DNA of 64,000 nucleotides from Okamejei kenojei (lineage: Eukaryota), in contig CM069161.1 of the NCBI GenBank assembly GCA_035221665.1, positions 3,782,001 through 3,846,000 on the forward strand, written 5' to 3'. Below the pieces are notes generated by a model that did no database searches, was not told where the DNA came from, and was given only the letters and a program-made list of their open reading frames with translations. Below, one piece after another: positions 3,991 through 61,169 of the stretch. Made by a program: the position numbers and the translations under genes. How positions within the stretch are numbered: the first letter of the stretch is position 1; every line of letters begins with the position of its first letter.

Positions 3991-4059
3991 CCTCTCTCAA
4001 CTTGAGCTCATGAACATTTTGATCTGCATTTCCACTTGACCAAGTCTTGTTCACCAAGT

Positions 4060-4400
4060 ACTCATATGCTCACCGATTTGAATAACTCATTTAAACCAGT
4101 ATCCTTACCTATGAACTATCTACAATCCTCCAATTCTTGTCTCTCATACATCCACCATTTTAAATCTCACAGCCAATGGCTACCATATCTCAAGCAGCCA
4201 AGCACCAAGTTCTGGAATTCTTTCCCTGAACCACTCCATCATGTTTTCCCTCTTCTCTTTTATAATTGGCACTGACTAAGCTTCCCAGTAAACTTTCTTA
4301 ATAACTTGGCAGCTTAGTGTCAAATGATACTGATAAAACTTTTGTTAACTGCCTTGGAACATTTCACTTCAGCAAAGATGCAATGTAAATTTAAATTACT
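4060..4400 (+). mobile_element. Old L2-type LINE 3' fragment
   Basis: KFWNSFP(E) motif followed by a tail resembling the L2 3' end (gccttggaacattt...aaagatgcaatgtaaat). Confidence 0.5.
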
Positions 4401-4515
4401 TATGTAATATTTTCTACACCTATAAAGTATGACTGCTCTGAAAATCTCCCCCAAAAACTAGGATAAAAAATTCCTCATGAAACTTACGTTGATTCTAAAC
4501 CATTTTGTGGCTCTG

Positions 4516-4727
4516 ATAGACACAAAATACTGGAGTAACTCAGCGGGACTGGTAGCGTCTCTGGAGATGCTACCAGTACCACTCAAGGAATGGGTGACGT
4601 TTTAGGGTTGTGGGTCTCAACCCAAAACATCACCAATTCCTTCTCTCCAGAGACGCTGCGTGTCCCACAGAGTTACTGCAGCATTTTGAGTCCATCTTAG
4701 TTTTAAACCAGCATCTGCAGTTCCATC
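4516..4727. mobile_element. Penelope-terminus-like fold-back element (diverged)
   Basis: gacacaaaatactggagtaactcagcggg...gggtgacgtttt is inverted against aaaacatcacc...gagttactgcagcattttgagtc. Contains an extra nested inversion (ctggtagcgtctc/gagatgctaccag). Confidence 0.8.
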
Positions 4728-5348
4728 CGACATATTTTGTGGGTCTTTTCTTTATAACCTTCTCTTCAGTGACAGACCTCTGGCTAAGATCCACGCTGCT
4801 TCTTCAAAGGGTAAATGCAAATACTACATTGGATTCAAATGCGTTAACATCAAGCTGAGGATTTGTACCGATTCACTTGTATGTAACTAAAATGCAAACA
4901 GTCTGAAAAAGGTTGGCTTTTAAAAGCAGGCCTTATTTGGACACAGATTTTCCAGCCTCATTACGTTACTACTGAATATTTTCTGAAATATTTGCCACTG
5001 GCAATAACAACAGATGAACTACACAAGTGGAACAGAATAGCACCTGCATGCCCTGCAGCCTTTTGTTTTGGCAATTAATTTGATTTGCTCTTTTTTTCGG
5101 CTTTGTAGAATTTCTTTCAATACTCGGCTTTCCTGGTTGTTTCAGTACTGTGAAGAGCTAACAAGCAGTGGATATCAGCTTTTGCTGCCATTTGCATGGC
5201 TCCTTTCACAGTGAAATACAGAATGAGTGAACAGTGAGTTGGAAATGAAGCACAGAAACATATCCAGCTCAAAATGGCACCCATTCAGCAGTAGCAAAGT
5301 ATCACAGACAGCTTTGAGATTACTGACCAATTAATTACATCAAGAGAA

Positions 5349-7716: not shown

Positions 7717-7722
7717 TTTATT
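7717..7722 (-). terminator. Candidate polyadenylation signal AATAAA for NSF
   Basis: Plus-strand tttatt. The minus-strand downstream sequence is G/U-rich (ttttgttgggt...tctgtttg). An alternative AATAAA lies at 7263-7268. Confidence 0.5.
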
Positions 7723-10326: not shown

Positions 10327-10874
10327 CTGAAACATAACCAAGATAGATATGACGTTACAGTCAGTAAATAAACAAAGTAGCATAATCTTCGGACGTGGTC
10401 AGCAAATGTGAAGAGCAACAAATGAAAACCTACATTCAGAAAGTCCTGATCAAGCCCTGGTGTTTAAGGAACCAAAATCCATTGATTAAACATTGAGCTC
10501 ACATTCCTCTACCCTGAATTCTGGAGCTAAAGGTTAAAACACCAACTCAATGGTGGCTGAGGTAACTTGTGCCAAAGGTGTTGACAACAAATGTTTACAC
10601 AGAAGAACAAACTGGAACTTTTTAGAGAAGTCTTCTCCCAAATTTTCCCTTTTGCTCCTCTTCTCCTAAAGGCATCAGTTCTAACTAAAAGGCATTCTGA
10701 CGCCATCAACTGAATTTCAGCTGTCAGAGGTGAAGGCATTCTAGACATAAGGCAAACAGACATGACTACAATACTACTTAGCAGTAACCAGCGATAGAAG
10801 TAGTAAAGATAAATGTTGAAGTGCAAATCTGAACATTAGTGGGAAACCGACAGGTGTAACAGCTTGAAATGCAG

Positions 10875-11066
10875 AGGAAGGAACTGCAGATGCTGGTTTA
10901 AACCAAATGCAGACACAAAATGTTGGAGTAACTCAGCAAAACAGGCAGCATCACCGGAGAGAAGGAATGGGTAATGTTTCGGGTCTCGAACCAAAACGTC
11001 ACCCATTCCTTCTCTCCAGAGATGCTGCCTGTCCTGCTGAGTTACTCCAACATTTTGTGTCTATCT
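10875..11066. mobile_element. Penelope-terminus-like fold-back element
   Basis: agacacaaaatgttggagtaactcagc...gaaggaatgggtaatgtttc is inverted against aaaacgtcacccattccttc...gagttactccaacattttgtgtct. The junction is at gggtctcgaacc. Confidence 0.85.
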
Positions 11067-13039
11067 TAGATATATCAGCTTGTCTGAATACATGGGGTGC
11101 ACGAGAAGGGAAGAACCACTAGACAATGCATTGGAGTAAAAATGCCCAATGATTTCCACTGACTATCTGCTCCCCTCTTCTTAACGCAGGGGCTCGACAC
11201 ATTTCAATGGAGTAGCAGAGACCATTACTGACGTGATTGTACCAGATAAAGCACCATCTTAGACTTGAGGAGAACAGGCCATTAATTCCTATTGCAGAGG
11301 GAGCGCTGTGCTATTTCAACCATTCATTGACACATCTAAGCTAGACCATCAATTACTGCCGATGGACAATTATTGCAGGTAGTTTTTCCTGGGCCCTCTA
11401 CAATTCTTTGAGAAAGAAAATTAGCTTGAAACTAGAGAGAAAAATTCCACACATTTCAAAGGAGCAAAAAATCATATACTTGAAACTACTGAAAATATTG
11501 AATTTATCTTTTATTATTTTTAAACATTCTATTTTACATTTAAGCAACTAATTAATTTTGCTACATTAAATTCAAAGGTAATTATGTAGGAAATTTGCTT
11601 AATAATTTCAATCTTAATCAACAAATCCCCCAAAGTAATTTGCATCCAAAATCCAATTTATGTTCTTGAATAATTTCCACGACTAAAATTATCACATTTA
11701 TGTTTCATCATCAAGGATATGGGATCAAAAGCAAGTGATTCTCAAGGCTAGCAATGGGTACAATGTAAGAGAATATTATAAAATATTAGAAGTTAAAATG
11801 CATGCATAAAATACAAGATAAAAACAGCTGAACAAGTTTATGATGTGGACTTCTATGGTTAAGCCAAAAACTGATGAGCACATTGGAATTTACAAAGCTC
11901 TCCAGCCAAAACAACAATTAAATGAAGAATGACTCAGGATTCTTGCCTAACAATTCGACTTGGGGGATCTGAATGTGCAGCGAATTAGACTTTGTACTTT
12001 TCACCAAACATCTAGACTTAAATCCAGCCAAGGCTGATCAAGTAGGAGCACTCTCAGTGACTTTTACGAATTTCACTTGAAATAAGTACAAATAATTTAA
12101 CATTTACAGATAAATAATCACATATATAAAGGCACCAAACTATTAAAATTATACAAATTAATTATACTCCATTTAAGGCATCTCCCTTGTGAATGTGAAT
12201 CGTGAATTTATAATTGCACAACTAATAGAAGAATATGCAAGAAACATTAAATGATGAAAGCTTTTGTTTACAGGGGCAGTATCCAGATAACTTTCTTATG
12301 TTTAACAAAATTCTTTTCCACTTCATTGTGCCAATTTTCATTTGAGAAATAAATTCTCTCTTTGGATTTTTCTGATCTGTATATAATCTATATATATACA
12401 CTAAATTCCTCATGAGGATTACATTGAGGATTACCCAACATTTTGTGCAACTTCCAAATCTTTTCCTGCTGCTCATTGTGAAGTCAGGGGGCATCCAGTT
12501 TACACAGAGGCAGCAGAGGATAAATGGTTTTGTTTGGGAATGAGTTAAGGTGAAATTTCTGTATTCCAATGGCCAAAGGTTTTTTTAGAATTCCCTATCT
12601 CAGAGCTCTGATGGATGTTATTTGCTGATTATATTGATTTTTGTAATTGATGGCAAGGATGTGGGGAGACATCAACAAGGAAGAGATGCTGCATGTCCCA
12701 TAATCTTACTGAATTTCACAGCAAGTTTGAAGGATCGAATCCTGCTTGTAAACATAAATTAGGAGCTGGAATAGATCTTTGACCTCTGAATTTTGGCTTC
12801 TATTCTACTTTCTTCAACATTCGAGGTGGGAATAACCAAATTGAATGCACCCTTCATTCTATTTATATGCATTCACACCAGCTGGTTGGCTGGTGTGTTC
12901 GTTTATAAAAAGGAATGCATTTCATTACTGAATCCCAACTTCTGGGGACTTCATTCATTTACAAGGATATACACATCCTCATATACATGGGGTGAGAGCT
13001 TGCAGTGCAAACACTAATGAGAGCTGTGTACATACTCAA

Positions 13040-22300: not shown

Positions 22301-22390
22301 GTCATCCCAGGGTTTCCAGGTGCCGTACTTGGGTTCCTCAGTCGGGTCGGGAGTGGGAAATTGTGGCAACCTTCATTGGTTTGGCCCAGT
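19376..22390 (-). mobile_element. Near full-length Rex1/Babar LINE (~3 kb, APE endonuclease + RT), disrupted
   Basis: ORF pieces 21803..22369 (LPTILLANVQSLENK, FCFTETWL), 21275..21799 (AVYIPP, AGDFN, TLDHCY, SDH), 20658..21266 (KASGPDGIPG), 20288..20620 (YRPVALT) and 19555..20229. KFADDTT lies near 20235-20255. The 3' tail is TGACAATAAA followed by (TTTTGAC)n. Confidence 0.95.
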
Positions 22391-22391
22391 A

Positions 22392-22694
22392 GGCACAGCA
22401 CGGCGGTGTAGTGGTAGAGCTGCTGCCTTACAACACCTGAGACCAAAGTTCGATCCCGACTACAGGTGCTGTCGGTACGGAGTTTGTACATTCTCCCTGT
22501 GATCGCGTAGGCTTTCAGTCGGGTGCTCCGGTTTCCTCCCACACCCCAAAGACATACAGGTTTGTAGATTAATTGGCTTTGGTAAAAATTGTAAACTGTC
22601 GCTAGTGCGTAGGATAACGTTAGTGCACGGGGTGATCGCTGGTTGGCGCGGTCTCAGTGGACCAAAGGACTTGTTTCTGCACTGTACCTCTAAA
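22392..22694 (+). mobile_element. HE1-type tRNA-derived V-SINE
   Basis: tRNA-like head (gtagtggtagagctgctgccttaca...agttcgatcc B box), V-domain core (cggagtttgtacattctcc...ccggtttcctcccaca) and a CR1-derived tail. Confidence 0.9.
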
Positions 22695-23904: not shown

Positions 23905-24078
23905 AATGCAAGGAACTACAGATGCAGAAATCTTGAGCAACATACATAGTGCTGGAGTAACTCAGTGCGTCATTCAACATCTGTGGACGGAATGGAGGGT
24001 CTTGATCCAAAAGGCCTATCCATTCCCTCTACAGATGCTGCCTGACCTTCTGAGTTACTTCAGCACTATGTTTTGCCT
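23905..24078. mobile_element. Penelope-terminus-like fold-back element (older)
   Basis: caaggaactacagatgc...catagtgctggagtaactcag is inverted against ctgagttacttcagcactatg. The junction is at gagggtcttgatcc. Confidence 0.75.
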
Positions 24079-25583: not shown

Positions 25584-27295
25584 AGATACATAGAAAATAG
25601 GTGGAGCATTCTGCCTTGAGCCAGCACCGCCATTCAATATGATCATGGCTGATCATCCGCAATCAGCGTTCCTGCCTTCTCCCCATATCCCTTGATTCCA
25701 CTCGCCCAAAGAGTATCTAACTCTCTTTTGAATGCATCCAGTGAATCGGCCTCCGCTGCCTTCTGAGGCAGAGAATTCCACAAATTCACAACTCTTTGGG
25801 TGAAAAGTTTTTCTTCATGTTATAAATGGCCTATCCCTTATTGTTAAACTGTGGCCCCTGGTTCTGTACTCCCCCAAAAGCAGGAACATGTTTCCTGCAT
25901 CTAGCGTGCCCAATCCCTTAATAGTTTTATATGTTTCTATAAGATTCCCTCTCATCTCCTAAATTCCAGTGAATACAAGCCCAGTCGTTCCATTCTTTCA
26001 TCATACGACAGTCCACCATCCCGGGAATTAACCTGGTGAACCTATGCTGCACTCCCTCAATAGCAAGAATGCCCTTCCTCAAATTAGGAGACCAAAACTG
26101 CACACAATACTCCAGGCGTGGTTTCACCAGGGTCCTGTACAACTGCAGAAGGACCTCTTTGCTCCTATACTCAAATCCTCTCGTTATGAAGACCATTGTT
26201 TAGCCATGAAGGCATTATCTTTCTTCACTGCCTTCTGTACCTGCATGCTTACTTTCAAGGACTGATGTACAAGGACACCCAGGTCTCGTTGATCTTCCCC
26301 TTTTCCTTATCTGCCACCCTTCAGATAATAATCTGCCTTCCCGTTCTTGCCACCAAAGTGGATAGCCTCACATTTATCCACATTACACTGCATCTGCCAT
26401 GCATCTGCCCACTCAACCAACCTATCCAAGTCACCCTGCATCCTCATAGCATCTTCTTCACAGTTAATTCCTACTCTTTGTTTCCTGTCTGCCAACCAAT
26501 TTTCCATCCATGTCAATTCACTACCCCCAATACCATTAATTTCTGTTCTAATTTCGCCCACTAATCTCCTGTGTGGGATCTTATCAAAGGCTTTCTGAAA
26601 GTCCAGATACACTACATCCACTGGCTTTCCCTTATCCATTTTACTTGTTACATCCTCAAAAAAATCCAGAAGATTAGTCAAGCACGATTTCCCCTTCATA
26701 AATCCATGCAAACTTGGACCGATCCTGTTACTGCTATCCAAACACATCTTTAATAATTGACTCCAGCATCTTCCCCACCACTGGTCTATAATTCCCTGCT
26801 TTCTCTCCCCCTTTCTTAAAAAGTGGGATAACATTAGCTACCCTCTGATCCACAGGAACTGATCCAGAATCTATAACACATTGGAAAATGATCATCAATG
26901 TATCCACTATTGCTAGAGCCACCTCCTCGAGTACCCTGGAATGCAGAATATCAGGCCCTGGGGACTTATCAGCATTCAGTCCCATCAATCTACCCAGCAC
27001 CATTTCCTGACTAATGTGAATTTCTTTCAGTTCCTCTGTCACCCTAGATCTGTCCCCTAGTACATCTGGGAGATTGTTTGTGTCTTCCTTAGTGAAGATA
27101 GAACCAAATTACCTGCTCTATCCGTCTGCCATTTCCTTGCTATAAATTCACCTGTTTCTGTCTTCAAGGGACCACATTTGTCTTAACTAATCTTTTCCTT
27201 TTCACATACCCAAATAAGCTTTTACTATCCTTCTTTATATTCTTGGCTAGCTTACCTTTGTACTTCATCTTTTCTCCCCTTATTGCCTTTGTAGT
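25584..27295 (-). mobile_element. CR1 LINE, 5'-truncated with internal deletions
   Basis: ORF pieces with KSPGPD, GFMKGKSCLTNLL, VYLDFQKAFDK and LEYCVQFWSP. The 3' tail is at ~25590. Confidence 0.92.
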
Positions 27296-27571
27296 TACCT
27301 GCATAATATGTGTTACGTAATTGGTGATGTCAACAATTGTTACTGCACAGGTCAGTGAAACTGCCAAAAATAAAATGTCACTGACAAGGAAGTGTCTCCA
27401 CATCGTAAAAGCAAAGAAACAACTGCTGACAAGTGAAGAAATAAAGTAATTTATAGATATTTGTTCGGAAAGTACGTAAAAGCCTAATGTGTTTGTGCTC
27501 CTATTTTCCCCACTTTCTCATCCACTCCTCACGTGACAGGTAATGCAGAGACAAACCCAAACATGCTGTGG

Positions 27572-27862
27572 AGGTGGTGCAGCAGCAGAGTTGCTGCCTT
27601 ACAGCGGCAGAGACCCGGGTTTGATCCTGACTATGGGTGCTGTCTGTACGGAGTTTGTACGCTTTCCCCATGGGTTTTCTGTGGAAGCTCCAGTTTCCTC
27701 CCACACTTCAAAGATGTACAGGTGTGTAGGCTAATTGGCTAGGTGAAATTTAAAATTGTCCCTAGTGTGTCGGTTAGCGTTAGTGTGCGGGGATCACTGG
27801 TCGGCACGGACTCGGTGGGCTGAAGGGACTGTTTCAGTGCTGTAACTGTAAAACTAAAAAAA
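27572..27862 (+). mobile_element. HE1-type V-SINE
   Basis: gagttgctgccttacagcggcagagacccgggtttgatcc head, core, and the tail ggactcggtgggctgaagggactgtttc. Confidence 0.9.
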
Positions 27863-28002: not shown

Positions 28003-28205
28003 GGTTGCACAAAAAGCTGGAGAAACTCAGCGGGTGCAGCAGCATCTAAGGAGCGAAGGAGATAGGCGACGTTTCGGGTCGAGACCCTTCTTCTCGACCC
28101 GAAACGTCGCCTATCTCCTTCGCTCCTTAGATGCTGCTGCACCCGCTGAGTTTCTCCAGCTTTTTGTGTAACCCTCGATTCTCCAGCATCTGCAGTTTCT
28201 TCGTT
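28003..28205. mobile_element. Young Penelope-terminus-like fold-back element with 82-bp arms and 17-bp TSD
   Basis: Arms 28003-28084 and 28092-28173 are 81/82 complementary with a 7-nt loop. The direct repeat aacagcaaatcttacac lies at 27986-28002 and 28206-28222. Confidence 0.93.
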
Positions 28206-30104
28206 AACAGCAAATCTTACACAATGTCCACCACCCTGATTAAATGGTGCACCTTCCCTCTGCCCATTGCACTCTATGGTTGATGCTCACCTCAATACTT
28301 CAACTTCTTTCTCTCACAAGCACTAAAGATCATACCCTGATTTACCTTGTGCAGGGCGTGCAAAGAAAAAGGCTTTCCTCAAGTAAGGCAAGGCAAGGCA
28401 AGGTGCTGACCCTGTCACAGAGGGACTTAAAACAGAAACGGGTATCGACCACTGGAACCCTCAAGCATGTCCCACAATTCAATATTATTACGGCTTACCT
28501 ACACCGGCCTCAACTCTTCTGTGATCATTCCCCATGGCCTTCAATATCTCAATCTTACAAGTATTTATTCATCCCCATTTTCATTACATGTAATGATCTG
28601 GATTCCACTACAATTGGATGGGAGGGAATAAGAATTTCAGAGATTCACTAACCCTAACTAACTGGGAAAATAAATTTCAATGCACGTTAGTCTCCTCCAG
28701 AAATGATAGCTATAAATTCTATTTATAAAATTAACATATTTGTAAACTAAAGGCATACAGAGCAAAGTTAACGCACAGGTCGTAACTAAGTGATGGAGCA
28801 GATTCCCCATTTTCAAACAGTATAGAATGCCATTTGACTACTCAATCAATCTAAAGTGCCTCCAATGCAGGAACATTCCTCCCAAACAAATAGACTAAAG
28901 ATGTATGTGGAACTCTCAATATTGTTTCACCAATGCCCTATACATTTCAAGCAAGACTTTCCAACTTTTGTATTCAATCCCTGTTCAATAAAAGCCAACG
29001 TTGCAATTTGCCTTCCCAGCTAATCACTGAATATGTTTGCCAATTTTGTGTTTCATGTCCGGAGACACCCAATTCCACAGGACAATCCTCTGTACTCTAT
29101 CTCCATTTAAGAACATAAGAGATAGAAGCAGAGATAGAAGGGCTATTTGGCGCCTTGTACCTGCTCTGACATTCAATTAAACCAAAGATAATCTTTGTCC
29201 TCATTTACATTTTACTGTATTTATCCCATTTTCCACAATTTCATTAAAATTCAAAAAATCTATAAATATGTCTTGAATGGGGTCTGCGATGAAGCCTTCA
29301 AGACTCTATAAGGCACAGACTCTCAACGATTCCCTCTTTTCAGGATGAAGATTTTCCCCCCTCCTCTTGGCCCTGAGAGTTGGTTCATCTTAGTCTGAGA
29401 AAATGCATTGACATGAGTCAAGCTCCAAGAATGTAATATGCTTTCATTCTTCAAAAATCTGGAGACTATAGACAGACGATAAATCATTGTACCATCCTAG
29501 AAAAATTTGGCATTATGAATTAGATAAGAAGGCTGTTCAGTCATAAATAAACAATTAACACTATAATCAGGTCTGGTTCAAGGTCACAGTTTCATGTTCT
29601 AACAAAGTATTTCATACCTATGGTAAGTATAAATCCCATTTGAACACGTGGTTTAGTTTAAGTATGACTAACAAAAATACTTTCGTACAAAAGGGTGTGT
29701 TCGTAGTCAAAATGTTGATTAAATCCTACAGAAATTGAAAAGAGCTGGTATTTTCAAAATTTCATACAGATTAGAAAATTTCTTGCACTGGGGGAGCGTA
29801 ACACTAAATAACCTGTCTTACTTGTTCTTTCACTTTACTCTCCTGAAGGCCTGGTTGTGATACTTCTGAACATCCGAAAGGTATGCAATCATTCACTGCT
29901 TAAACATGTAGCACAGCAATGGACACTTGTATGGAGATGCCAAATGTACGTTGGGTGTGGAGGGGGAGTGCTACTGTTCATCGACATTTACTCCAACGTT
30001 ATTATCTGTAAGTTTACGCATGCGCAGTAGGACTACCGTTTCTTACTTGCATAAGAACTGACATATATCCTCGGCACTTAACTTATGCAAGTCATATGTA
30101 TATG

Positions 30105-33759: not shown

Positions 33760-35130
33760 GGCACCACTCTCCAACTCTTTCAATGCTGTGTTGATGACTG
33801 CATTGGTGCTGCCTCCCCAATTTTATCAACTCTGCCACAAACTTCCACCTTGCCTCAAATTCAACTGGATGATTTCTGATCTCTCTGTTGCTATCACAAG
33901 TAACAAAGTAAACTCACTGAGGCCCACAGCTACTTAGACTACACCTCCTCTCACACTGTCTTTTAGAAAACATAGATAAACAAGTGCAGAAGTAGGCCAT
34001 TCGGACCTTCGAGCATGATCTTAGCTGATCTAAAATCAGTTTCCCGTTTTTGCTTTTCCCCCATATCCCTTGATTTCTGTAGCCCTGAGAGCTAAATCTA
34101 ACTCTCTCTTGAAAACACCCAGTGAATTGGCCTCCACTGCCTTCTGTGGCAGAGAATTCCACAGATTCACAACTCTCTGGGTGAAGACATTTTTCCTCAT
34201 CTCAGTCCTAAATGGCCTATCCCTTATTCTTAAACAGTGACCCCTGGTTCTAGACCCTCCCAACATCGGGAACATTTTTCCTGCATCTAGTCTGTCCAAC
34301 CCTTTAAGAATTATAGGTTTCTATAAGAACTTTCTAAATTCCAGTGAAGCCATCACATTTTCATAGTGTCTCCACCTCCATTACATCTGTTCACACAGCA
34401 AGGCTTTCCATATCTGAAATGACAACCTTTTTTCAGACAACATGGCATTCCCTCCACTGTGGTTGATTTTGCCCACACCTGCATCTCCTCCAATTTCCGG
34501 ACTTCTGCTTACACCTTGCTTCCACCCAGACAGAATGGCGATAGAGTTTCTTTAGTCCTTATCTTTCACCCTATCAGCCTCTGCATCCAGCACGTCATTC
34601 TTTATCATTTCCATCAGTTGTTACGAGATCCCATGAACCATATCTTTCCCTCGCCACCCTTTCCTGCAGGAATTACACACTCTGTGACTCCCTGACTCAC
34701 TCCTCCGTGCACAACCCCTGCCAATATTCCCTGCAACCTTTGGAGGTGTAATACCTATTCACCACATCCACTTTCACTTTCACCCGATCCAAGACATTAA
34801 CAACTCTTCCAGGTAAAGCAGGATTAACATGCTCAACTGCCAACTTTGGGTATTGCAGATGGTGCTTGTGATGTAGCCTCATCTACATTCACGTGGCTAG
34901 ATGCAGACTTAGTGACCACTTTGACAAGTATTTGGTCTCTGTCCGCATTGCCATCGTGAACCTCTGGCTGCATGCCATTTCAATTCCCCCTTCCCATACA
35001 GAACTGTCAGTCCTCAGCCTTCTCCACTGGAAGCCAAATACAAACTCGAAGCATAGTACTCATTTGCCACCTGCAGTCTACAACCCAATGGAATAAATAT
35101 TGCATTTTCTGATTTCAGGTAACCCATGCA
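33760..35130 (+). mobile_element. Penelope-like element remnant (RT C-terminus + GIY-YIG endonuclease), split by a CR1 insertion
   Basis: Remnants xDDCIGA...NFINSATNFH..LKFNW and HSYLDYTSSH; then RVSLVLIFHPISLCIQHVILYHFHQLLRDP..HIFPSPP (ORF 34459..34695); then TCSTANFGYCRWCL*CSLIYIHVARCRLSDHFDKYL, a GIY-YIG-like VYCIxC..C...YIG.T.R.L..RF.EH. Confidence 0.8.
33963..34346 (-). mobile_element. CR1 LINE 3' end inserted into the Penelope remnant
   Basis: ORF 34036..34299: RTRGHCLRIRDRPFRTEMRKNVFTQRVVNLWNSLPQKAVEA. Confidence 0.9.
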
Positions 35131-35754: not shown

Positions 35755-35994
<240 letters not shown>

Positions 35995-38129: not shown

Positions 38130-38970
38130 TCAATCTTTTAGTGGCGACATTGATGAGCTTTCCTTGAGATTGCATCAATGTACTGGGGCTAGGACATATC
38201 TTCAGAGATATATTTTCTCATGAACTTTAAGCTGTTGACTCTCTCCACCACTGTCCCATCGATGAAGATAGCTTTGTGGATCCCCAGATATCCCCACCTG
38301 AAGTCAACAATCAGCTCCTCGTTTTTGCTAACGTTGGGAGAAAGATATTGTTCTGGCACCATTCAAACAAATTTTCAATCTCCCTCCAGAACTCCTTGCT
38401 TCCCATTATTTATCTGATAACGGTGGTATTGCCGGCTAATTTAAAGATGCTGCTGGAACTATGTCCGGCTACATAGTTGTGCATATAGAGCAATGGCGCA
38501 AGAGACTGAACTCACAGCCTTGAGGTGCTCTTGTGCTGATAGTTATTGAACAGGAAGTGTCTCCGCCAATTCGTACCAATTTTGTCTGATAATGAGACAG
38601 CCAAAGATCCTATTACAAATAGATGAACCAAAGTTCTCTTATCTAAGGAAGGATCTCAAACCGAAATGTCACCTATTCCTTTTCTCCTGATATGCTGTCT
38701 GACCCGCTGCGTTACTCCAGCTTTTTGTGTCTATACACAGTTTGATAAGCTTCGAGGGGAGGGTGGTATTGGACACAGGCTATAGTCGATGAACAATGCC
38801 CTGACATACATGTTCTTATTGTCCAAGCAGTCCAGTGTAGAATGGAGAGCCTGTGAGATTGCATCCCTATTGATCTGTTGTGGCAATAGGTGAATTGTGG
38901 TGGGTCCAGGTCCTTACAAAAATAGGATATGATACGCGCCATAACCAACCTCAAAAGATTTGATCACCAA
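38130..38970 (-). mobile_element. Old Rex1/Babar RT fragment interrupted by a Penelope-terminus copy
   Basis: DLDPPQFTYCHNRS (ORF 38712..38954); gaactttaagctgttgactctctccacc is the reverse complement of VERVNSLKF. Confidence 0.8.
38645..38734 (+). mobile_element. Penelope-terminus-like short element (single arm)
   Basis: aaggaaggatctcaaaccgaaatgtcacctattcc...gacccgctgcgttactccagctttttgtgtc. Confidence 0.8.
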
Positions 38971-40921: not shown

Positions 40922-41357
40922 GGATCATACACCACGGAAACAGGCCTTTGGCCCTCTAAGTTTGCATTGATGATCAAAACACATATTTACATTAATATTG
41001 GACTAATCTCATTTCATTCTCAACAAATCCCCTTCAAATTTCCACAGAATTTATTGCTCACTTAGACATTTGGAACGGTTCCAGTGGCAATTCCCGCACC
41101 AATCTGCACATCCCTGAGATACAGGAGGAAACAGGGAGAATATGCAAACTCCACACAATCAGTAAATCTCAGTGTTAAAGAAGGAACTGCAGATGCTGGA
41201 GAATCGAGGGTCTCGACCTGAAACGTCGCCTATCTCCTTCGCTCCTTAGATGCTGCTGTACCCGCTGAGTTTCTCCAGCCTTTTGTGTACCCCAGTAAAT
41301 CTCAGTACGTCTGGGTATTTGTAGCTGTGAGGCAGCAGCTCTGCTGGATGTGCCATG
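40922..41357 (-). mobile_element. Diverged V-SINE interrupted by a Penelope-terminus element
   Basis: cacggaaacaggcctttggccc tail, gggagaatatgcaaactccacac core, and head remnant gctgtgaggcagcagctct...gtgcca after the insertion. Confidence 0.7.
41174..41292. mobile_element. Penelope-terminus-like element with an inverted terminal piece and 14-bp TSD
   Basis: Same subfamily as 28003 (gaaacgtcgcctatctccttcgctccttagatgctgctg). TSD cagtaaatctcagt at 41160-41173 and 41293-41306. Confidence 0.9.
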
Positions 41358-44700: not shown

Positions 44701-45707
44701 TATTTTTAATTCAGGTTGACCTGTAATGAGTCCTTATAAACGAATAGCAATGACATCTACAAAATGTTGAGAGGGCTAAATGTCTGCATATTATGTTTAT
44801 AGGAATAAATTGGCTGTTGAGTATGAAAGCTAGAGTCTCAGATGCAAAGATCCTTCATATTTTGCTAATAGCCAAGGAAACTTACAACTTAGTTTAAACT
44901 GCCTCAATTTCCCTCTATTTTATCATAATTTATCCATTTGTTCATTGTGATTTTCATCCTTGCCGAACCATTAAAAAAGCAGGAGCATTTTTAAAGTGTG
45001 CAAAATTCCTCCCGAGAAGATAATCTGGAGAATCCCTCCACATTGTGATCCCATTGTTTCCAATGAGAAAATGTAACCCAGCTTTAACAAGAGCAGTACT
45101 CAGAATGTGACAACACATTTCAAAACCTCTAATTGACATCTAGCTGGATAAGGTTTCAGGAGACTATGCATTGGACTTCACATGCTCTCAACTGGATAGT
45201 AAAACATATTAGCTGACGGTAAGGGTACAAGCAGCCTGCCAGCTGTGTCTGTAGGCCTTATGCTCTTAAAGGTCCTGGACAAAAAGACCCAAAACAATGC
45301 TTTCATCCTGAAAAGTGAGGACACATTCGTCACCAGTGTAATTTTCCAGACACAAAAGAATACAGATCAACCAAATCAATCTTATATGTCACAAAATATG
45401 CCCCTGAAGGCATTGGAAAGTTGATACAATTTTTAATGTGTGTGTTGTAACAGGAGAAGCTGAATATTTAAGATACATATATTATATATATTTATTATAT
45501 ATTATTATATATATATAGGAAAGAACTGCAGAAAAGACGAACTTGAGGACTTATCAGAGACCAGTTCTTCCGCCAGGTTCTTCTTTGTTACACAGAAACC
45601 GATACATGTTTCCCCTTGACCCATTTCACCTTGAACCCCGAGAGATTATCTGAAAGCCTAGGTAGAGTTGATGTGAAGAGGATGTTTCCAGTAGTGGGAG
45701 AGCTGAC

Positions 45708-45832
45708 CGTTCTGATGCAGGGTTTTGGACCTGAAACATCAACAAATATTTTTCTTTCCACAGATATGGCAGAGTGTCTCCAGTATTTTATGTTTCTGTT
45801 TCAGATTTTCAGCATCTGTAGTTTTTGTTTTG
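45708..45832 (+). mobile_element. Older Penelope-terminus-like element
   Basis: ctgatgcagggttttggacctgaaacatc (degenerate hammerhead-like motif)...cagattttcagcatctgtagttttt. Confidence 0.6.
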
Positions 45833-46129
45833 ACTCGTTTACGATTGGTGTTGCTGGATTACTCTGGCTTGTCTTCACTAGCATTCCATTTCAGTCTAAT
45901 TTATCTAATTCTTCCATTGTTTTTCCAATGCATTTCAAACAGGTTAACGCTTGCAGTATTCTGGTTTTGCACCTGGCTTGAAACAGATTTGAGTGTGATA
46001 AATACATATGTAGATATCTTTGAACACTTGTACATACTTTCCCAATGTATGACTAAGCATCATTTTGAAACATCTGTATTTAACGTCCCTTACCATTTTA
46101 GCTTCAGTTTTGAGCCAGTCTTTGCTCAT

Positions 46130-46247
46130 CAAGGAACTGCAGATGCCAGTTTATAAAGTAGACACAGAGTGCTGGAGTAACTCAACGGGTCAGACAACAT
46201 CTCTGGAGATAAGGGGTGATGTTTCAGGTTGAAACCTTCCTTCAGAC
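46130..46247 (-). mobile_element. Penelope-terminus-like short element (single arm)
   Basis: aaggaactgcagatgcc...gtgctggagtaactcaacgggtcagac...gatgtttcaggttgaaaccttccttcagac. Confidence 0.8.
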
Positions 46248-49233: not shown

Positions 49234-49332
49234 CCCGAGGAAGGGCCCTGACCCAAAACATTGCCTGTCCATTTCATCCACAGAATTTACATGACCCACT
49301 GAGTTCCTCCAGCACTTTGTTTTTTGCTCCTG
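49234..49332 (+). mobile_element. Penelope-terminus-like short element (diverged)
   Basis: ccgaggaagggccctgacccaaaacattgcctgtccatt...gacccactgagttcctccagcactttgt. Confidence 0.65.
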
Positions 49333-49791
49333 ATTACAAGACTTAGTCGGACTTATTACACGTTAGTCCTCAATTTGCCAAATATTTCAACAATTTAAAG
49401 TATAAATAGTGCAATCAGAAGCTCATACCAAAGTTCTAAAGATTGAAAACTTTACCAACTTTCTATATTCTGTGTTTAAGGCTGTACATTAATAACTCAC
49501 AGGTCTTTATACACATGGCATCAGAAAGCCATGGAGGCATTTTCACCACAGCACCAGCATTGTGAATGAGAAGTCTAAAATTAGTTCTACTCATCTGATC
49601 TTCATCCAAATATATTTCTATGCGTTCCTTTTTTAAATTAATTAATATTCCTTTTCATAGCATATTCCAACACTTGTTATTGACTTTTCTCCCAGTGAAT
49701 AAAATATTCTTCGAGCATGACAATCACAAATTTTAAAAATAATAATGGAGGTTGAAAATATCCAATCTGAATGGAGGAAACATTAAAAGGT

Positions 49792-50066
49792 GGGATGGCA
49801 CAGTGGCATAGCGGTAGTTGCTGCCTTATACAGCGGCAGACACCTGGGGTCTATCCTGATTATGGGTGCTGTCTATATGGAGCTTGTATGTTCTTCCTGT
49901 GACCATGTGGGTTTTCTCTTCCCACACTCCAAAGATGTTCAGGTTTGTAGGTTAATTGGATTTGGTAAAATTGTAAATTGCCCCTACTGTACAGGACAGT
50001 GCTAGTGCATGTGGTGATCACTGGTCGGTGGGCCTTGTTTCCATGCTATATCTCTAAATTCTAAAG
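49792..50066 (+). mobile_element. HE1-type V-SINE
   Basis: ggcacagtggcatagcggtagttgctgcctta head; core; gggccttgtttccatgctatatctctaaa tail. Confidence 0.85.
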
Positions 50067-52147
50067 ATGGGAACACTTTGTTGAAGTAGAAATATCCTGA
50101 CCATTGGACAAAGGTTGCACTAAATGTTGTGCCCTTTATCCTTTGCCTTGATTGTATTCATGTATAGCCTTTTCAAGTCAAGAGTGTTTTATGATTGAAG
50201 CAGAATACTCTGGCGGTTGTAGGGAAAAAGCCCCTATACCTTCTTTCCGATGGCAGGAGTAAAATTGGAGTATGGGCAGACTAGCACGCAAACAAAAGCT
50301 TTTCACTGTACTTCTGTACACGCGACACTAATAAACTAAAACTAAAAAGTCATGTCATCAGGTTCCTGCAATTTTCAGAAATGCATCACAGCAAAGTTCC
50401 TGGCACTTCATTAGCAATTTTAGAAAAACTCTTGCAAATACTTCCTCATTGGTGACAAATTACAGCACACTAGTTAGATAAAATGTAAATACTATTAGTA
50501 GGTCTTTCGCTTGATAGAGAAGGTTGATTTTCAATTCATTAAGTGAAGACATGGCTAAAACACAATCTAACATTACATGGTGTTAAAGAGAGATTGTGAC
50601 CGACCTCTCAGGAGGATAAAAGAAGACATGATGGTGATGGATCAGACAAATTCTTTCATGGCCTGGCAAAAACATATCCCTTAGTTAACCATGCTGGAAC
50701 ATCTTATCTCGTCATTTTCATACTGTTACTCATATTTGTAACAGATAGCTGCTACTTTATGTACATTATGGAAAAAAAAATCACTACTTAGTTAAAAGAG
50801 TTTGGAAATCCTGAGGTCCCAATAGAAGTAAACCTTATAATTATTTATTTTAGAGACAAAATAGATTCTAAAGTTACCTCAACAATATGTTATACCTCCC
50901 TAGACACCAACAACAAGCAAGGGATTAACTAAACTACCCAAACAACATTACCTCAGGCAACCAACAAAAACAAAAACAGTGTTTTTTCTCACCCATACAG
51001 ATCCTTTGTGTTCTCTTGGACAAGCCACATTTGGCAGTGCATTTAATAATGGAACAGCTAAGGAAAACGAATAAAGCTCTCTTTGGGGTGTCCATATCCT
51101 ATGGGAAGGTCAAGGAATGGGTGCCCTTTCATGGGTGTACACCGTGTAATGGAATCAAAGCTTCAAGGAACAAATATGACATGTAGCCACTTCTAAGAAA
51201 AAGGGCCATGTGCATTAATTTAAAAATAAAATAATTGACTCTTATGCACTTGTAAGTTTTATTGCAGTTAGAGGTCAGCACCTACAAGGTCACTTCCAGT
51301 CAGGATGACTATAGTTAATAGCACAGGTCGGTTACACTTCCTAAACAGGAAGCCAGAACAGTTCATGTGCATATAAATACTTTCAGAAACTGAATAAAAG
51401 TAGAAACGGTGAAAGTTAAATTGTGCTAATCTTACAATAATTTTAATGCTTCCTACCACATTCCACAAGTGAGAGTGGTATAATTAAATGACCTATGCAA
51501 GTTTGTGGCTTATTAGCTCAACCCACTACTCTTCAAAGAACTAAACAGCTTGAATAATTCATTAGTCACCTGTTAGAGGTTACACCAAAAAGACCAGCAC
51601 ATGCCTGAACCTCAACAAATTAACACCCACCAAAACCCCACAGCAGAATTCTCTCTCCACAAGACAGCTATTAGGTTAACTGAAATTGTAAGAGATTGAT
51701 GAGACATCTGTTGGAAAATGGCAGGAGAGAAAATTGAGTATATTTGGGTAAATGGAAGTTTTAAAAAATTGGTCAAATTACTAAAGCAAAGTACCAAAAA
51801 TGCTAAAATGTAAAACAAGCTGGAAATACTTGAGGTCCAGCAGAATCTACATGGAGACAAAACAAAATAAAACATGGAGATAGATAACATTATTTCCTGT
51901 CAGTAGCTAGCAGGTCACTTCTGATCAACTTACTAAAGGAGTCTCTCGGGGGTTTAAGGATGATTCAACTTCAGTTCTATGGGTTTTGATATAGCCAGAG
52001 GCCAATGTAGGACCTCAATACATCAAATAAATGCAGGGCAAGAGGTGCCTGGACAGATGGGCAGTTTAACATATGGTGCACTCCTTCTGCCATTTATTAT
52101 CTGGGTTTCTTTGGATTCCTATTACTTCTCAATGTCGTACTGAATTT

Positions 52148-52400
52148 GGGCGGCAGTGGCAGTGTTATTGCCTTACAGCGCCAAGGAAACCGCTTCGATC
52201 CTGACCGCTGGTGCTGTCTGTAAGGAGTTGGTATGTTCTCCCAGTGACCGCATGGATTTACTTTGGGTGCTCCAGTTTCCTCCCACACTCTAAAAAGACG
52301 TACAGGTTTGTAGGTTAATTGGCATCGGTAAAATTGTCCATCCTGTGTAGGATAGTGTTAGTGTACGGGGTGATCGATGGTTGGCACTGTATGTCTAAAG
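52148..52400 (+). mobile_element. HE1-type V-SINE
   Basis: gccttacagcgcc...cttcgatcctgac head; ggagttggtatgttctccc core; tail ends tgtatgtctaaag. Confidence 0.85.
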
Positions 52401-54224: not shown

Positions 54225-54540
54225 AGCATGGAAATGGGTCTTTCATACCCACCAACAACCACCCGTTTACACTCTTACAACATTAGTTCCATCTCCCTGC
54301 ATTCCCATCAACACCTCCCAAATTCTACCACTCACCTACACACTCAGGCCAATTTACCATGGTCAATTAGTCTACTAACATACAATTAATAGGGATATGG
54401 GAGGAAACTGAAGAACCAAGTGTAAAGCCATGCAGTCACAGAGAAAACGTGCAAACACCAACAGATGGCACCCACGGTCACAACTGAACCTGGGTATCTG
54501 CTGTGGTGAAGCAGGAGCTGCACAATCTGTGCCACCATAT
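54225..54540 (-). mobile_element. Diverged V-SINE
   Basis: gggaggaaactgaagaacc...gtcacagagaaaacgtgcaaacacca...ctgaacctgggt...ctgtgccacc is the reverse complement of the HE1 head and core. Confidence 0.75.
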
Positions 54541-55850: not shown

Positions 55851-56580
55851 CATTGGTTAACATACCACCATACTTCCTAATTACTTGCTGTGCCTGTATA
55901 ATAGCTTTCTGCATCCTATGGAGCAGCACAAAACAATCTTTCAGTGCCACACAATTTACTAGTTTCTTCGTGCATTCAGATATATTGCACTCCCATTCTT
56001 TCGGACAAGGTCATAACCTGTCATTCCCCCGTCTCCTGCCTCCTCGCTTAAGCCTATACCCCTTCAAAAGATAATTGCAAAATGTAATTAAACACAAAGC
56101 AATGCTGTGAAAATTATATGCCGATTATATAGCGATTATCGCTTCCAATTATTTTATCGTCACTTTTGTTTATTGGACTAACTTAAGTTGCCAATTTGAG
56201 TGGAGAAAGGCCTAACTGTACTAATTATCATTTGGTGGTATTGATAAGAAAACAACTGCTTACCAAGCACCAGGAAACATCTTTTGGTCTTTCAATAATA
56301 CCACATAATCGTTTGTATTCACAAAGTGACAGAATGGAGTCTTGATTTAATATCCAGGCCAAATTACTTGATGGTCCAATGTTTCCTCAGTATTATAATG
56401 AAGTGTTCGAGATGATGTGTAGTGTCCCCGCATTGTTGTGAAGAACAAGTCTACAGAAGCTGGGATTTTGCACTTGGTCAGCCTTGCTGAGAATACAGTG
56501 AAAGATTCTGTCACCATGTTTTTCCAAAAGGAATATTTCTCATCACTCCACCACTGCAAGCTGGTCTCATAATTGCTCGT

Positions 56581-56671
56581 AGACACAAAATGCTGGAGTT
56601 ACTCAGCGGGACAGGCAGCATCTCTGGAGAGAAGGAATGGGAGACGTTTTGGGTCGAGACCCTTCTTCAGA
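56581..56671 (-). mobile_element. Penelope-terminus-like short element (single arm)
   Basis: Minus strand CTGAAGAAGGGTCTCGACCCAAAACGTCtcccattccttctctccagagatgctgcctgtcccgctgag... Confidence 0.88.
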
Positions 56672-57014
56672 TTAGCAGTGTAGCATCCAAAAAGTTTTAA
56701 AAAAAATCTAATTTTACAGAACAGACAACACTGATTTTCCCAAATTTCAAGCATTATAGAAATGTATTTAAAATATTTTGAGCAGTTTCAAGATGCAACC
56801 ATCTGGTCTCACTTCCAAGTTGGCGTTAGCAGATCCAACTGCGATTTTTAAAATAAACAAAACATCCCGAGGTGGGAGAACCATCTCAGAATGAAGAATG
56901 GGAATTACATGAAAAAGCTTCCTGCTTGTGTCCTCATCGTGAAGTGCTGAAGGGGGCTTTTGTCTATGCCAAAGGTTGAAGGAGGTTGCAGGAGAAGGCA
57001 GAGAGGTGCAGCTA

Positions 57015-57812: not shown

Positions 57813-59166
57813 CCATGAGAGGAGTAAGAGACAGAAAAGACACAGGTAGGCAGTCTGCAAGGCAATTGCCACAATGAAGTTAGTTTTGAGAACCTGCTGC
57901 AATATTGGTAACAACTTGTCTTTGAAAATAAGCAAATATTTTCTGGCTGAACAAGCAAAGAACTGAAATAATTCCGTTTGAGTTTTACATAAATACAGAG
58001 GACGTGCTTTACTATGTCCAGAAGCAGTTAAAACTTCCAAGAACTGGAAAGTTCAGTTTGCCCGACAGGGATTCACATCAAGTTTTACAACAGCCTGACC
58101 TGGATTGAGTGAAGTTATAGGTCAATCACAGTAGCACCCAGGAAGGGCCACAACATTTTGGCATCCCAATTATTAATATTAGTTGTTTCAACGGCATTTC
58201 TTGCTTCATTATAATACAGAGCAGATCATCGGTGAAGCCCGAGTAATTAATAACTAACATTTTCAATGTCAGGATACATGTTCCTCATTCTTCTAAACTC
58301 ATAGTATATAAATAAATCACTGACTACTGAGACAGTTCTTCAAAAATCTCCATTAGTTTTTTGCCCTGCAGCAGAGCTGCTGTCTGCAGGAACGCATCCC
58401 AACTTCAGAAACATGCCAAAGCAGAGGCTGTAAAACTGCTGTCCAGATTTCACAAACTAAATTAAACCTTTACATACTTTGCATTGCTTCTGACCAATGC
58501 TCTCACCTATATCTTTGCGTGTTTTTTTTTTTCCGAGCCACCTGGGTGGCGCAACATTGCTGACGTAGCAGAATAGACAGGCCAGGTTAGTAACTGAAGG
58601 CGTAGCCAGTTTCTCTTCATTCCCTGCTGAACTGCCGAGCTAATCCATTACCACTTTTAAATATAAAAAAAACCTGTATCAACCTGTTACTGAAATCCGA
58701 GACCAACTCAATCCTAACAGCACCTTGTGCAGTACAGGGAGCTCAATGACTCTCGTGTACCTATAATTTAGATTGCTTTATTGTTGATATCTATTGTTTG
58801 TATACAGCAGGGTGACTGAAATACTTACAATGGAGCCATTTTCAGGGATATGTTGATAAACATTTAGACAGAAAGAGTTTACTTGACATCTCCCTTAGAC
58901 ATGAGAATTATACAGATTACATTCCCCTGTAATGACGTGTAGCTGTAATGACGTGTATCTGTTCCATATGTTCCACTGCACTATAATTTCAGGTCTATAA
59001 ACCATTTCCCAAACAAAGATACAGGACTAATAGTCCAGGAAGAGCTCCGGATCTCCAGTCTCAATGGAGCAATCTGAAGATAGCAGGGAGAAGCTCCCAT
59101 AACTGGTCGATCTTGTTAGTTTTTGCTGCAAATTTTAAATGATGCAGGGAGAGGTATCCTGATAAT

Positions 59167-59250
59167 TGACACAAAAAGTTGGAGTAACTCAGACAGCCTC
59201 TCTGGTGAGAAGGAATGGATGACGTTTCAGGTCAAGACCCTTCTTCAGAC
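59167..59250 (-). mobile_element. Penelope-terminus-like short element with an intact hammerhead-like core
   Basis: Minus strand gtCTGAAGA-A-GGGTC-TT-GACCT-GAAAC-GTC-atccattcc (core at 59221-59248). Confidence 0.85.
59221..59248 (-). ncRNA. Candidate minimal type I hammerhead ribozyme motif
   Basis: CUGANGA box, an extra A, stem II GGGUC/GACCU, GAAA box, loop-less palindromic stem III (AC/GU) and a GUC triplet. Helix I is short and uncertain; activity is untested. Confidence 0.5.
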
Positions 59251-59459
59251 CATTGACCAGCTACATTGTGCTGTAAACAACATCTGCAAAGTGACAGCAG
59301 GATTAATAGAGGCCCAATAAACTATAGACACAGGAATCTTGAGCAAAGCACAAAGTGTTGCCTGGCCCACTGAGTTCCTCCAACCTTTTGTGTTTCAGGC
59401 AGGATTGGAATAATCCAGGCTTTCATCTAAAAGGGAAAGGCAACCAATACATGCTGTTT

Positions 59460-60226
59460 CATAGAAACATAGAAATTAGGTGCAGGAGTAGGCCATTCAG
59501 CCCTTCGAGCCTGCACCGCCATTCAATATGATCATGGCTGATCATCCAACTCAGTATCCCGTACCTGCCTTCTCTCCATACCCTCTGATCCCCTTAGCCA
59601 CAAGGGCCACATCCAACTCACTCTTAAATATAGCCAATGAACTGGCCTCAACTACCCTCTGTGGCAGAGAGTTCCAGAGACTCACCACTCTGTGTGAAAA
59701 AAGTCTTTCTCATCTCGGTCTTAAAGGATTTCCCCCTTATCCTTAAGCTGTGACCCCTTGTCCTGGACTTCCCCAACATCGGGAACAATCTTCCTGCATC
59801 TAGCCTGTCCAACCCCTTAAGAATTTTGTAAGTTTCTATAAGATCCCCTCTCAATCTCCTAAATTCCAGAGAGTATAAAACCGAGTCTATCCAGTCTTTC
59901 TTCATAAGACAGTCCTGACATCCCAGGAATCAGTCTGGTGAACCTTCTCTGCACTCCCTCTATGGCAATAATGTCCTTCCTCAGATTTGGAGACCAAAAC
60001 TGTACGCAATACTCCAGGTGTGGTCTCACCAAGACCCTGTACAACTGAAGTAGAACCTCCCTGCTCCTGTACTCAAATCCTTTTGCTATGAAAGCTAACA
60101 TACCATTCGCTTTTTTCACTGCCTGCTGCACCTGCATGCCTACTTTCAATGACTGGTGTACCATGACACCCAGGTCTCGCTGCATCTCCCCTTTTCCTAA
60201 TCGGCCACCATTTAAATAATAGTCTG
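59460..60226 (-). mobile_element. Young CR1 LINE 3' portion
   Basis: ORFs 59859..60275 (LVRPHLEYCVQFWSP) and 59648..59905 (LEFRRLRGDLIETYKIL); tail (tttctatg)n. Confidence 0.93.
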
Positions 60227-61169
60227 TTTCAGAAGACAGAAGTTGATAATATGTATAAAAAATGACATGTGGCATTTGTAGTTAGATTACCTGGATGCCA
60301 ATAGCGAGTCACTGCCCAACCCAGAGCACAGTTTAACAACTGTTGCACGAGTACAAGGACGAGTACAATGATTGATGCCATTATTGCGACACAGAGGCAG
60401 GTTCTCAAAGCTTGCAAGTTAGGCTAATTCTTATCCTTCATCACAACATTGCAGTTGAAGGGAACCCTGGGGAAGTTGAAAGTATTGGGTCAATTCTTTG
60501 AAGAATAACCTGATCTATATGATTGTAATCTACACCAAGTAATGGTGCTTCAGTTCATTGGTTCCCAGTGATGACCATTCTTCATTCAGAGGGTGGTGAA
60601 CCTGCACACTTCACTTCCACAATGGGTCAGTCAGTCGTACAGCATGGACACGGGCCCTTTCAGCCCAACTTACCCAGGCTGTCCAAGATGCCCCCTCTGC
60701 ATTAGTTCCACCTGGCCGCATTTGGCCCTTATCTCTCTAAACATTTTCTATCCATGTACCTGTCCGAATGTCTTCTAAATATTGTTATTGTACCTGACTC
60801 AGCTATCTCTTCTTGCAGCTTGTTCCATATAATCACCCCCCCCCCACATGGAAAAGTTGTTTTCAGGGTTCCTAATACATCTTTACTCTCTCATCTTAAA
60901 CCTATGTCCTCTGGTGCTTGAAGAGACTATGTGCATTTACCCTTTCTATCTCCCCCCCCCTCCCCCCCCATGATCTTATACACCTCTATTAGAAAATCAG
61001 CATACTGCACTCTTAGCCTTCCCAACCTCTCCCTATAAAATCCTTGTAACTCTTCTCAGCACTCTTTCCAGCTTAACAACATACTTTCTATAGCAGGGCG
61101 GCCAAAACTGAATACAACACTCCAAATATGACCACGCCAATGTTGTATAAATTGTAATATAAACGACCC

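What the first reader, a model, noticed from the sequence alone, without database searches (positions are those of the whole stretch)
59221..59248. Hammerhead-ribozyme-like motif carried by a dispersed short element family
Seen: about ten related 90-200 bp elements (4516, 10875, 23905, 28003, 38645, 41174, 45708, 46130, 49234, 56581, 59167) share a terminal motif. Its best copy reads CTGAAGA-A-GGGTC-TT-GACCT-GAAAC-GTC on the minus strand. The copy at 56643-56670 has perfect stem II pairing, but GAAA has become AAAA, consistent with CpG decay. Established: CUGANGA/stem II/GAAA/NUH is the hammerhead core, and Penelope-like elements carry minimal type I hammerheads with a tiny palindromic stem III thought to act as dimers. 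Inference: this is a high-copy, ribozyme-bearing non-autonomous Penelope derivative. The 59221 copy is in the sense orientation of the NSF pre-mRNA. Helix I is weak (at best aatgg/ccatt with a bulge).
Basis: partly seen in the sequence, partly recalled or inferred. Interest (0 to 1): 0.7.

Follow-up and report, generated by a model that had tools for sequence, protein, structure and literature searches.

The report
Hammerhead-bearing Penelope retrotransposon end stubs
The motif is the known minimal hammerhead sequence at the end of a Penelope-like jumping gene, and this copy is one of an estimated million short, decaying end-pieces in the genome that likely do not cut RNA.

Summary
The motif is real, but the short elements are not a separate non-autonomous family. 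They are end-pieces (pLTR plus tail) of an autonomous Neptune-type Penelope-like element (PLE). The same end follows the GIY-YIG endonuclease in 26 of 29 independent loci, and a 3.98-kb partial-tandem element carries it at both ends. An unbiased 1-Mb sample holds 413 arms, control 0, about 1.1 million genome-wide. The minimal type I core is kept by all 7 subfamily consensuses. Older families have 4-5 bp. Stem II shows no real covariation, and Rfam has no hammerhead hit. 5' ends pile up just before CUGAAGA (93 at five positions) and not at the cut site (7), so the copied RNA was likely uncut and likely starts there. NSF sense orientation is correct, with no strand bias (13 sense, 10 antisense). 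Known kind (Cervera and De la Pena 2014). This scan noted the same family before on other DNA, including this genome.

The parts
59221..59248 (-). Minimal type I hammerhead core: CUGAAGA, extra A, stem II (G-U closing pair in this copy), GAAA, CG palindrome, GUC
59156..59250 (-). Solo PLE end-piece starting 2 nt before C3; intronic, sense to NSF
59252..59257 (-). Candidate 6-nt target duplication GTCAAT (second copy at 59165-59170); source of the 'aat' in the proposed helix I. Short, so uncertain
59356..59407 (+).
56555..56675 (-). Solo end-piece with G12A (CpG decay), core dead
49235..49337 (+). Decayed solo end-piece
46125..46247 (-). Decayed solo end-piece
45705..45821 (+). Old-family end-piece (N7 = U)
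41175..41295 (+). End-piece with a short inverted tail and a 14-nt target duplication; L198 subfamily
38642..38747 (+). Decayed solo end-piece
28006..28206 (.). Head-to-head inverted pair, arms 99% complementary, 17-nt target duplication; L198 subfamily
23910..24072 (.). Head-to-head inverted pair, decayed
10872..11083 (.). Head-to-head inverted pair joined in stem II
4513..4732 (.). Head-to-head inverted pair joined in stem II
35791..35925 (-). NSF coding exon (host gene); the next upstream exon found lies 8.7 kb beyond the window end

Best explanation
The motif is the minimal type I hammerhead in the terminal repeat (pLTR) of a Neptune-type Penelope-like retrotransposon, and the 59221 element is a short, decayed end-piece that was likely inserted by that element's own enzymes and is likely inactive. 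Shown: the same end follows the GIY-YIG ORF and also precedes the ATG in a partial-tandem element; short copies have target duplications, are often head-to-head, and mostly begin 0-5 nt before CUGAAGA, not at the cut site. Inferred from Frangieh 2024: RT starts inside the RNA at the tail, on uncut RNA. Inferred, about even odds: the transcript starts at an initiator-like YCAGTCT just before the core, so RT started on the 5' copy of the tail runs off the capped end after 90-135 nt and leaves a strong-stop-like stub. Inferred: helix I then has at most 2-3 bp, so any cleavage would need a dimer plus protein help, and solo intronic copies would not cut their host pre-mRNA.
For: Link to an autonomous element: 26 of 29 independent endonuclease loci carry the end 94-333 nt after the stop. 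L198 has it at both ends of a 3.98-kb unit, ATG about 165 nt downstream. RVT_1 E 5.5e-6 (below Pfam's cut-off) and GIY-YIG E 1.1e-4 (above it). Insertion marks: exact TSD of 8-18 nt in 27 of 108 non-inverted short or pyrimidine-flanked copies against 15 of 535 shuffled; 143 of 413 arms are head-to-head. 5' boundary: 164 of 224 arms that reach the core end just before it; 93 ends at positions 42-46 against 7 at 73-77, background 0.8% per nt; contig loose ends in three other runs pile up at the same three bases. Cap-like G: G before AGT in 20 of 93 solo copies and 0 of 60 long or pyrimidine-flanked copies; 12 of 18 informative solo junctions (p=0.0008); G lies outside the TSD in 8 of 9. Inert copies: 44 of 219 keep core, stem II and palindrome; stem II probability is 0.02 or less in the three young-family copies folded; 13 sense and 10 antisense arms in NSF introns, including a perfect sense motif.
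Against: Genome-wide, G before AGT (1,496) does not exceed A (1,897), a ratio equal to background. It rises to about 1.4 only after removing one insertion amplified inside another repeat (13 of the first 30 A-type loci). Only 2 of 9 G-type junctions add exactly one G; the rest add 2-12 nt or none. The other two junction positions tested show no G excess (4 of 8, 4 of 15). The boundary also looks like a 3' splice site (pyrimidine tract + CAG), and CAGTCTG is a small palindrome that could fix inverted junctions. No raw RNA reads were available. No uninterrupted ORF was found in the 20 long loci read (longest frame 589 aa). Rfam gives no hammerhead match.
Confidence: 0.8

Rival explanations
1. 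The short units are a self-propagating non-autonomous family (SINE- or retrozyme-like), transcribed from solo copies and mobilised in trans by the PLE.
For: Sharp 5' boundary, own TSDs, and only 18 of 413 arms have the endonuclease within 450 nt upstream (one query). Non-autonomous PLE derivatives are described (10.64898/2026.07.22.740005; PMC8557442).
Against: The two largest short-copy subfamilies also occur ORF-linked with the same tail. Copies are solo or head-to-head rather than head-to-tail arrays. If the promoter needs upstream pLTR sequence, stubs lack it (inference).
Confidence: 0.15
2. The boundary is a 3' splice site, as in D. virilis Penelope; spliced RNA supplies another, longer helix I, and the ribozyme is active in that form.
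For: Pyrimidine tract + CAG directly before the core. In D. virilis the intron end maps to the 5' end of helix I (PMC4209133).
Against: TSDs end at positions 36-51, 20 of 27 at 42-49, with no shared exon between. Only 2 genomic copies show the junction from the candidate donor at the stop codon. No GT donor within 600 nt gives a helix I of 4 bp or more in the three elements scanned.
Confidence: 0.12
3. The young family's hammerhead is fully vestigial; the sequence is kept as promoter or RT-binding sequence, not as a catalyst.
For: Helix I is 2 bp here and 4-5 bp in older, more decayed families. The core is predicted to be sequestered by the downstream pyrimidine tract. No cut-site ends. Boxes are no more conserved than stable tail blocks.
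Against: None of 10 catalytic positions varies between subfamilies, against 14 of 48 downstream (p=0.10). The 1.1 A/G change keeps pairing with U2.1. The D. virilis motif also has a 2-bp helix I, and the anole PLE ribozyme cleaves only with its protein.
Confidence: 0.4
4. The 59221 copy is a working ribozyme that cuts NSF pre-mRNA.
For: Intact boxes, sense orientation, and a chance bulged helix I with flanking DNA.
Against: G-U closing pair in stem II, no stem III, the weakest predicted double hammerhead of seven copies (-1.9 against -28.3 kcal/mol for the best dimer), a G12A-dead nearest sense neighbour, and no strand bias in the gene.
Confidence: 0.03

Closest known systems
Minimal hammerheads (min-HHR) in pLTRs of metazoan PLEs (Cervera and De la Pena 2014, PMC4209133; parts 1-2 of 4 read)
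   Same: CUGANGA and GAAA boxes, extra base between A9 and 10.1, G10.1-C11.1 in the consensus, palindromic 15.2-16.2, no stem III, location in the pLTR, thousands of dispersed single motifs and opposite-strand pairs.
   Different: Helix II is 4-5 bp (7-8 bp in S. mansoni). Helix I is 2 bp, as in D. virilis, not 4-5 bp. Copy number is far higher: 32,931 exact motifs against about 4,000-9,000 in coelacanth and Xenopus, counted by a different method.
Neptune-type EN+ Penelope-like elements (Craig et al. 2021, PMC8557442, passages; Arkhipova et al. 2013, PMC3846280, passages)
   Same: RT followed by C-terminal GIY-YIG, CX4CxxC linker and CCHH pattern, partial tandems, inverted 5'-truncated copy, optional 30-40-nt tail, 8-18-nt TSD, initiator-like site in the pLTR.
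   Different: Here most insertions are only the last 90-135 nt, with a sharp 5' boundary just before the hammerhead.
PAc (Poseidon) of Anolis (Frangieh et al. 2024, PMC11167929; parts 1-2 of 4 read)
   Same: Two preferred 3' end zones (tail), both-strand insertion products, no ends at the ribozyme cut site.
   Different: Different clade. The PAc ORF starts in stem II; here the ATG is about 165 nt downstream.
Non-LTR retrozymes (10.64898/2026.07.22.740005; part 1 of 5 and passages)
   Same: PLE-derived, non-coding, type I hammerhead.
   Different: Retrozymes are defined as head-to-tail tandems with a hammerhead in each unit; these copies are solo or head-to-head.

Membership tests
min-HHR of metazoan PLEs | CUGANGA / GAAA / UH boxes | tested here: met
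   59221 copy; six of seven subfamily consensuses read fully canonical, the seventh has weak-majority CpG decay
min-HHR of metazoan PLEs | Extra nucleotide after A9; G10.1-C11.1; palindromic 15.2-16.2 | tested here: met
   In the family. The 59221 copy has G-U at 10.1-11.1
min-HHR of metazoan PLEs | Helix I of 4-5 bp | tested here: not met
   2 bp in 37 of 55 descriptor hits, 4 bp in 2. Older families reach 4-5 bp. The D. virilis variant has 2 bp
min-HHR of metazoan PLEs | Covariation in the stems | tested here: inconclusive
   Stem II: one-sided and CpG changes only. On 19 chosen copies the covariation score was reached by 30 of 500 shuffles, and helix I was partly imposed by the search pattern
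min-HHR of metazoan PLEs | Located in the pLTR of a PLE | tested here: met
min-HHR of metazoan PLEs | Self-cleavage as a dimer | not testable with these tools
   Needs an in vitro assay; no cut-site 5' ends in DNA copies
Rfam hammerhead models | Covariance-model hit | tested here: not met
   No hammerhead family at E<=1 in the window or E<=10 on two good copies
Neptune-type EN+ PLE | RT plus C-terminal GIY-YIG in one ORF | tested here: met
   Domains in this order in frameshifted copies; no intact single ORF among 20 long loci
Neptune-type EN+ PLE | CX2-5CxxC linker and CCHH motif | tested here: met
   Read in translations of L198, L012 and L037; criterion from PMC8557442. Nematis has a reduced linker, so this does not fully separate the two
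Neptune-type EN+ PLE | RT phylogeny with named Neptune elements | not tested
   No reference PLE proteins were fetched
Neptune-type EN+ PLE | pLTR, partial tandem, inverted copy, tail, TSD | tested here: met
Non-LTR retrozyme | Head-to-tail tandem units each with a hammerhead | tested here: not met
   Window copies are solo or head-to-head
Independent non-autonomous element | Diagnostic sequence absent from autonomous copies | tested here: inconclusive
   Not met for the two largest subfamilies; the five smaller ones were not traced to ORF-linked copies

The most novel reading that the evidence does not exclude
A large share of about a million stubs are strong-stop-like cDNAs: full copies of the capped first 90-135 nt of the PLE transcript, made when RT starts at the 5' copy of the tail. 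They would map the start site from DNA alone, show that the natural template is uncut, and show that the most successful family spread after its helix I shrank from 4-5 bp to 2 bp, so that cleavage is dispensable or wholly protein-dependent.
Probability: 0.45. Interest if true: 0.5.

Novelty: new member of a known kind. Interest (0 to 1): 0.25.

Why it matters
The kind is published, so the motif itself is ordinary. The family still offers a very large natural record of PLE integration: fixed start, two end zones, TSDs and inversions. It bears on an open question, what the PLE hammerhead does, because copies avoid the cut site and helix I differs between old and young families in one genome.

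Tried and rejected
Rfam scans gave no hammerhead; the psbJ and miRNA hits reflect the inverted repeats. Cut-site origin of the 5' ends: rejected. Splicing from the donor at the stop codon: 2 copies only; no upstream donor improves helix I. Strand bias in NSF: none. A 52-aa RT piece had no Pfam hit; longer pieces did. Sequencing runs were contigs, RNA status mostly a guess, so they say nothing on expression or RNA ends. Dimer energies for young copies were invalid (2-nt loop) and were redone with a 4-bp stem II; they do not cleanly separate old from young families (-4.7 to -12.9 against -6.1 and -6.7 kcal/mol). The seed set had only 3 sequences and served only to list divergent copies. Lunse et al. 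2017 is not held and is known here only through a review. Supplement file 1 of PMC4209133 could not be searched and may list cartilaginous-fish motifs. Searches listed no paper on this family or on strong-stop PLE stubs; Repbase and Dfam were not available. The look-up of earlier findings by sequence was empty.

Full report
Observation. The sequence at 59221-59248 (-) is as described. A profile of the element finds 16 arms at 12 sites in the window: the 11 listed sites plus 59356, four of them head-to-head pairs. NSF is on the minus strand. One exon at about 35,920 matches solved NSF chains (E 1e-20), and further exons lie beyond the window end (found with motifs recalled from memory). The copy is therefore intronic and in sense. 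The host looks like a skate or ray; that label is recalled from its repeats and also appears in the scan's earlier notes, and no call of mine tested it.

What the element is. The best genomic matches extend upstream through a pyrimidine-rich UTR into a GIY-YIG coding region. Of 30 loci fetched with that endonuclease, 27 carry the same end 94-333 nt after the stop; one is the query itself, so 26 of 29. Further upstream lies an RT with YIDD. Locus L198 is a partial tandem: a 5'-truncated copy ending in the motif and tail, an ATG about 165 nt after the motif start, a frameshifted RT-linker-EN frame, and the end again 3.98 kb on. Pfam gives RVT_1 E 5.5e-6 (below cut-off) and GIY-YIG E 1.1e-4 (above cut-off). 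The CX4CxxC linker and CCHH pattern fit the Neptune type as described in PMC8557442 (passages); no tree was built. Window copies 28006 and 41207 have the tail of the L198 subfamily. The short units are thus ends of an autonomous PLE.

Abundance. 100 stretches of 10 kb at round coordinates hold 413 arms, reversed control 0. That extrapolates to about 1.1 million arms in 2.76 Gb. The exact 31-nt motif occurs 32,931 times. 143 of 413 arms have a head-to-head partner. Exact TSDs of 8-18 nt flank 27 of 108 non-inverted short or pyrimidine-flanked copies, against 15 of 535 shuffled pairs.

The hammerhead. The anatomy matches the min-HHR of Cervera and De la Pena (PMC4209133, parts 1-2 of 4 read): both boxes, an extra A after A9, G10.1-C11.1, a CG palindrome, no stem III. 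A descriptor gives 55 hits in 1.064 Mb and 0 in the control; helix I is 2 bp in 37 of them. The seven subfamilies with five or more members (202 of 219 copies) keep the core, the decayed ones apart from CpG decay, while the tail differs. Statistical support for selection is weak: 0 of 10 catalytic positions are bimodal against 14 of 48 downstream (p=0.10), and the boxes are no more conserved than stable tail blocks (p=0.39). Stem II changes are one-sided or CpG decay. On 19 hand-picked copies the covariation score was reached by 30 of 500 shuffles. Older, more diverged families have AGUY...RACU, a 4-5-bp helix I: 9 copies with the helix imposed by the pattern. Among 30 loci fetched without imposing it, five old-type copies show 3 bp (L224, L237), 4 bp (L233), 1 bp (L232) and 2 bp behind a mismatch (L231); the rest are mostly young-family copies with a 1-nt insertion. 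Rfam has no hammerhead hit. Folding predicts that the young core pairs with the downstream pyrimidine tract and that stem II barely forms. Only 44 of 219 copies keep core, stem II and palindrome.

The 59221 copy. It has T for C at two CpG sites, so stem II closes with G-U. The aatgg of the proposed helix I is flank: the element begins at the G two bases before C3, and aat is part of a candidate 6-nt duplication. Its double-hammerhead energy is the weakest of seven copies computed. Between the NSF exons found, 13 arms are sense and 10 antisense, and one perfect motif stands in sense. Nothing points to a role in NSF.

Where copies start. Of 224 arms that reach the first box, 164 end just before it (93 solo, 71 inverted) and 60 continue into UTR-like sequence. 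93 5' ends fall at profile positions 42-46 (this count includes some long copies of subfamilies whose UTR the profile does not cover) and 7 at 73-77 around the cut site; the background is 0.8% per base. Loose ends of contigs in three other runs pile up at the same three bases. The copied RNA was therefore likely uncut, as reported for the anole element in vitro, where RT starts internally at the tail and the ribozyme cuts only with protein (PMC11167929, parts 1-2 of 4). The boundary sequence YCAGTCT fits an initiator (consensus recalled). PLE start sites lie in the pLTR (PMC2377424 and PMC3846280, passages). For a capped start: G before AGT in 20 of 93 solo copies and 0 of 60 long ones, and in 12 of 18 informative junctions; G outside the TSD in 8 of 9 (10 of 30 loci had a TSD, one inverted junction dropped). 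Against: genome-wide G and A counts are at background (1,496 and 1,897) until one amplified insertion is removed (13 of 30 A-type loci), and only 2 of 9 junctions add a single G. A splice-site reading is weakened by TSDs that abut the boundary, by only 2 copies with the candidate spliced junction and by the lack of a helpful donor. I put the start-site reading at about even odds.

Mechanism. Shown: element identity, anatomy, insertion marks, boundaries. Inferred: the PLE protein nicks the target and primes RT at the tail; priming on the 5' copy of the tail yields a stub that ends at the RNA start; two such events give head-to-head pairs; priming on the 3' copy gives the longer truncated copies. 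Inferred: with two or three bases before C3, helix I cannot be longer, so cleavage is weak, protein-dependent or lost.

Novelty. A new member of a known kind. Searches listed no paper on this family, but the library is partial, Repbase and Dfam were not available, and one supplement of PMC4209133 could not be read. The scan's earlier notes report the same family and boundary in this and other genomes (17 findings, 8 shown). My reading was noted before I saw them, and they are not independent evidence.

Noticed in passing
L289, L294, L295, L297, L300-L302, L309-L314 (motif at about 1500; shared span about 980-1732): One hammerhead-bearing stub with its target duplication sits near the end of another repeat of 1.7 kb or more and was amplified with it: 13 of the first 30 A-type loci, 92-98% identical, perhaps about 800 copies. 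The host looks like a LINE 5' UTR in opposite orientation (not tested).
   Followed up: partly
window 34420-35124 (+): Old, decayed PLE coding fragment (linker and GIY-YIG region) with a pyrimidine-rich UTR and no detectable hammerhead end.
   Followed up: partly
L211-L219, L224, L231-L233, L237; window 45705-45821: Older PLE families with N7 = U or C, H17 = U and a 4-5-bp helix I; a natural contrast for cleavage tests.
   Followed up: partly
window 22402-22652, 27573-27812, 49802-50034, 52147-52390, about 54353-54459, about 43092: Dispersed SINE-like family of about 250 bp; resembles elasmobranch V-SINE/HE1 (name recalled, not tested).
   Followed up: no
window 5424-6437, 25600-27500, 33914-34320, 59460-60281 (-): Many CR1-type LINE fragments (type recalled); one begins about 210 bp from the 59221 copy.
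   Followed up: no
window 19555-22372 (-): About 2.8-kb GC-rich LINE remnant with endonuclease- and RT-like frames (Rex1/Babar-like, recalled).
   Followed up: no
L051:205-717: Head-to-tail array of 66-bp units cut from the PLE tail, without the hammerhead core.
   Followed up: no
NSF intron, window 35,926 to 8.7 kb beyond the window end: About 37 kb between the two NSF exons found, filled with repeats; no exon between them was detected with the motifs used.
   Followed up: no
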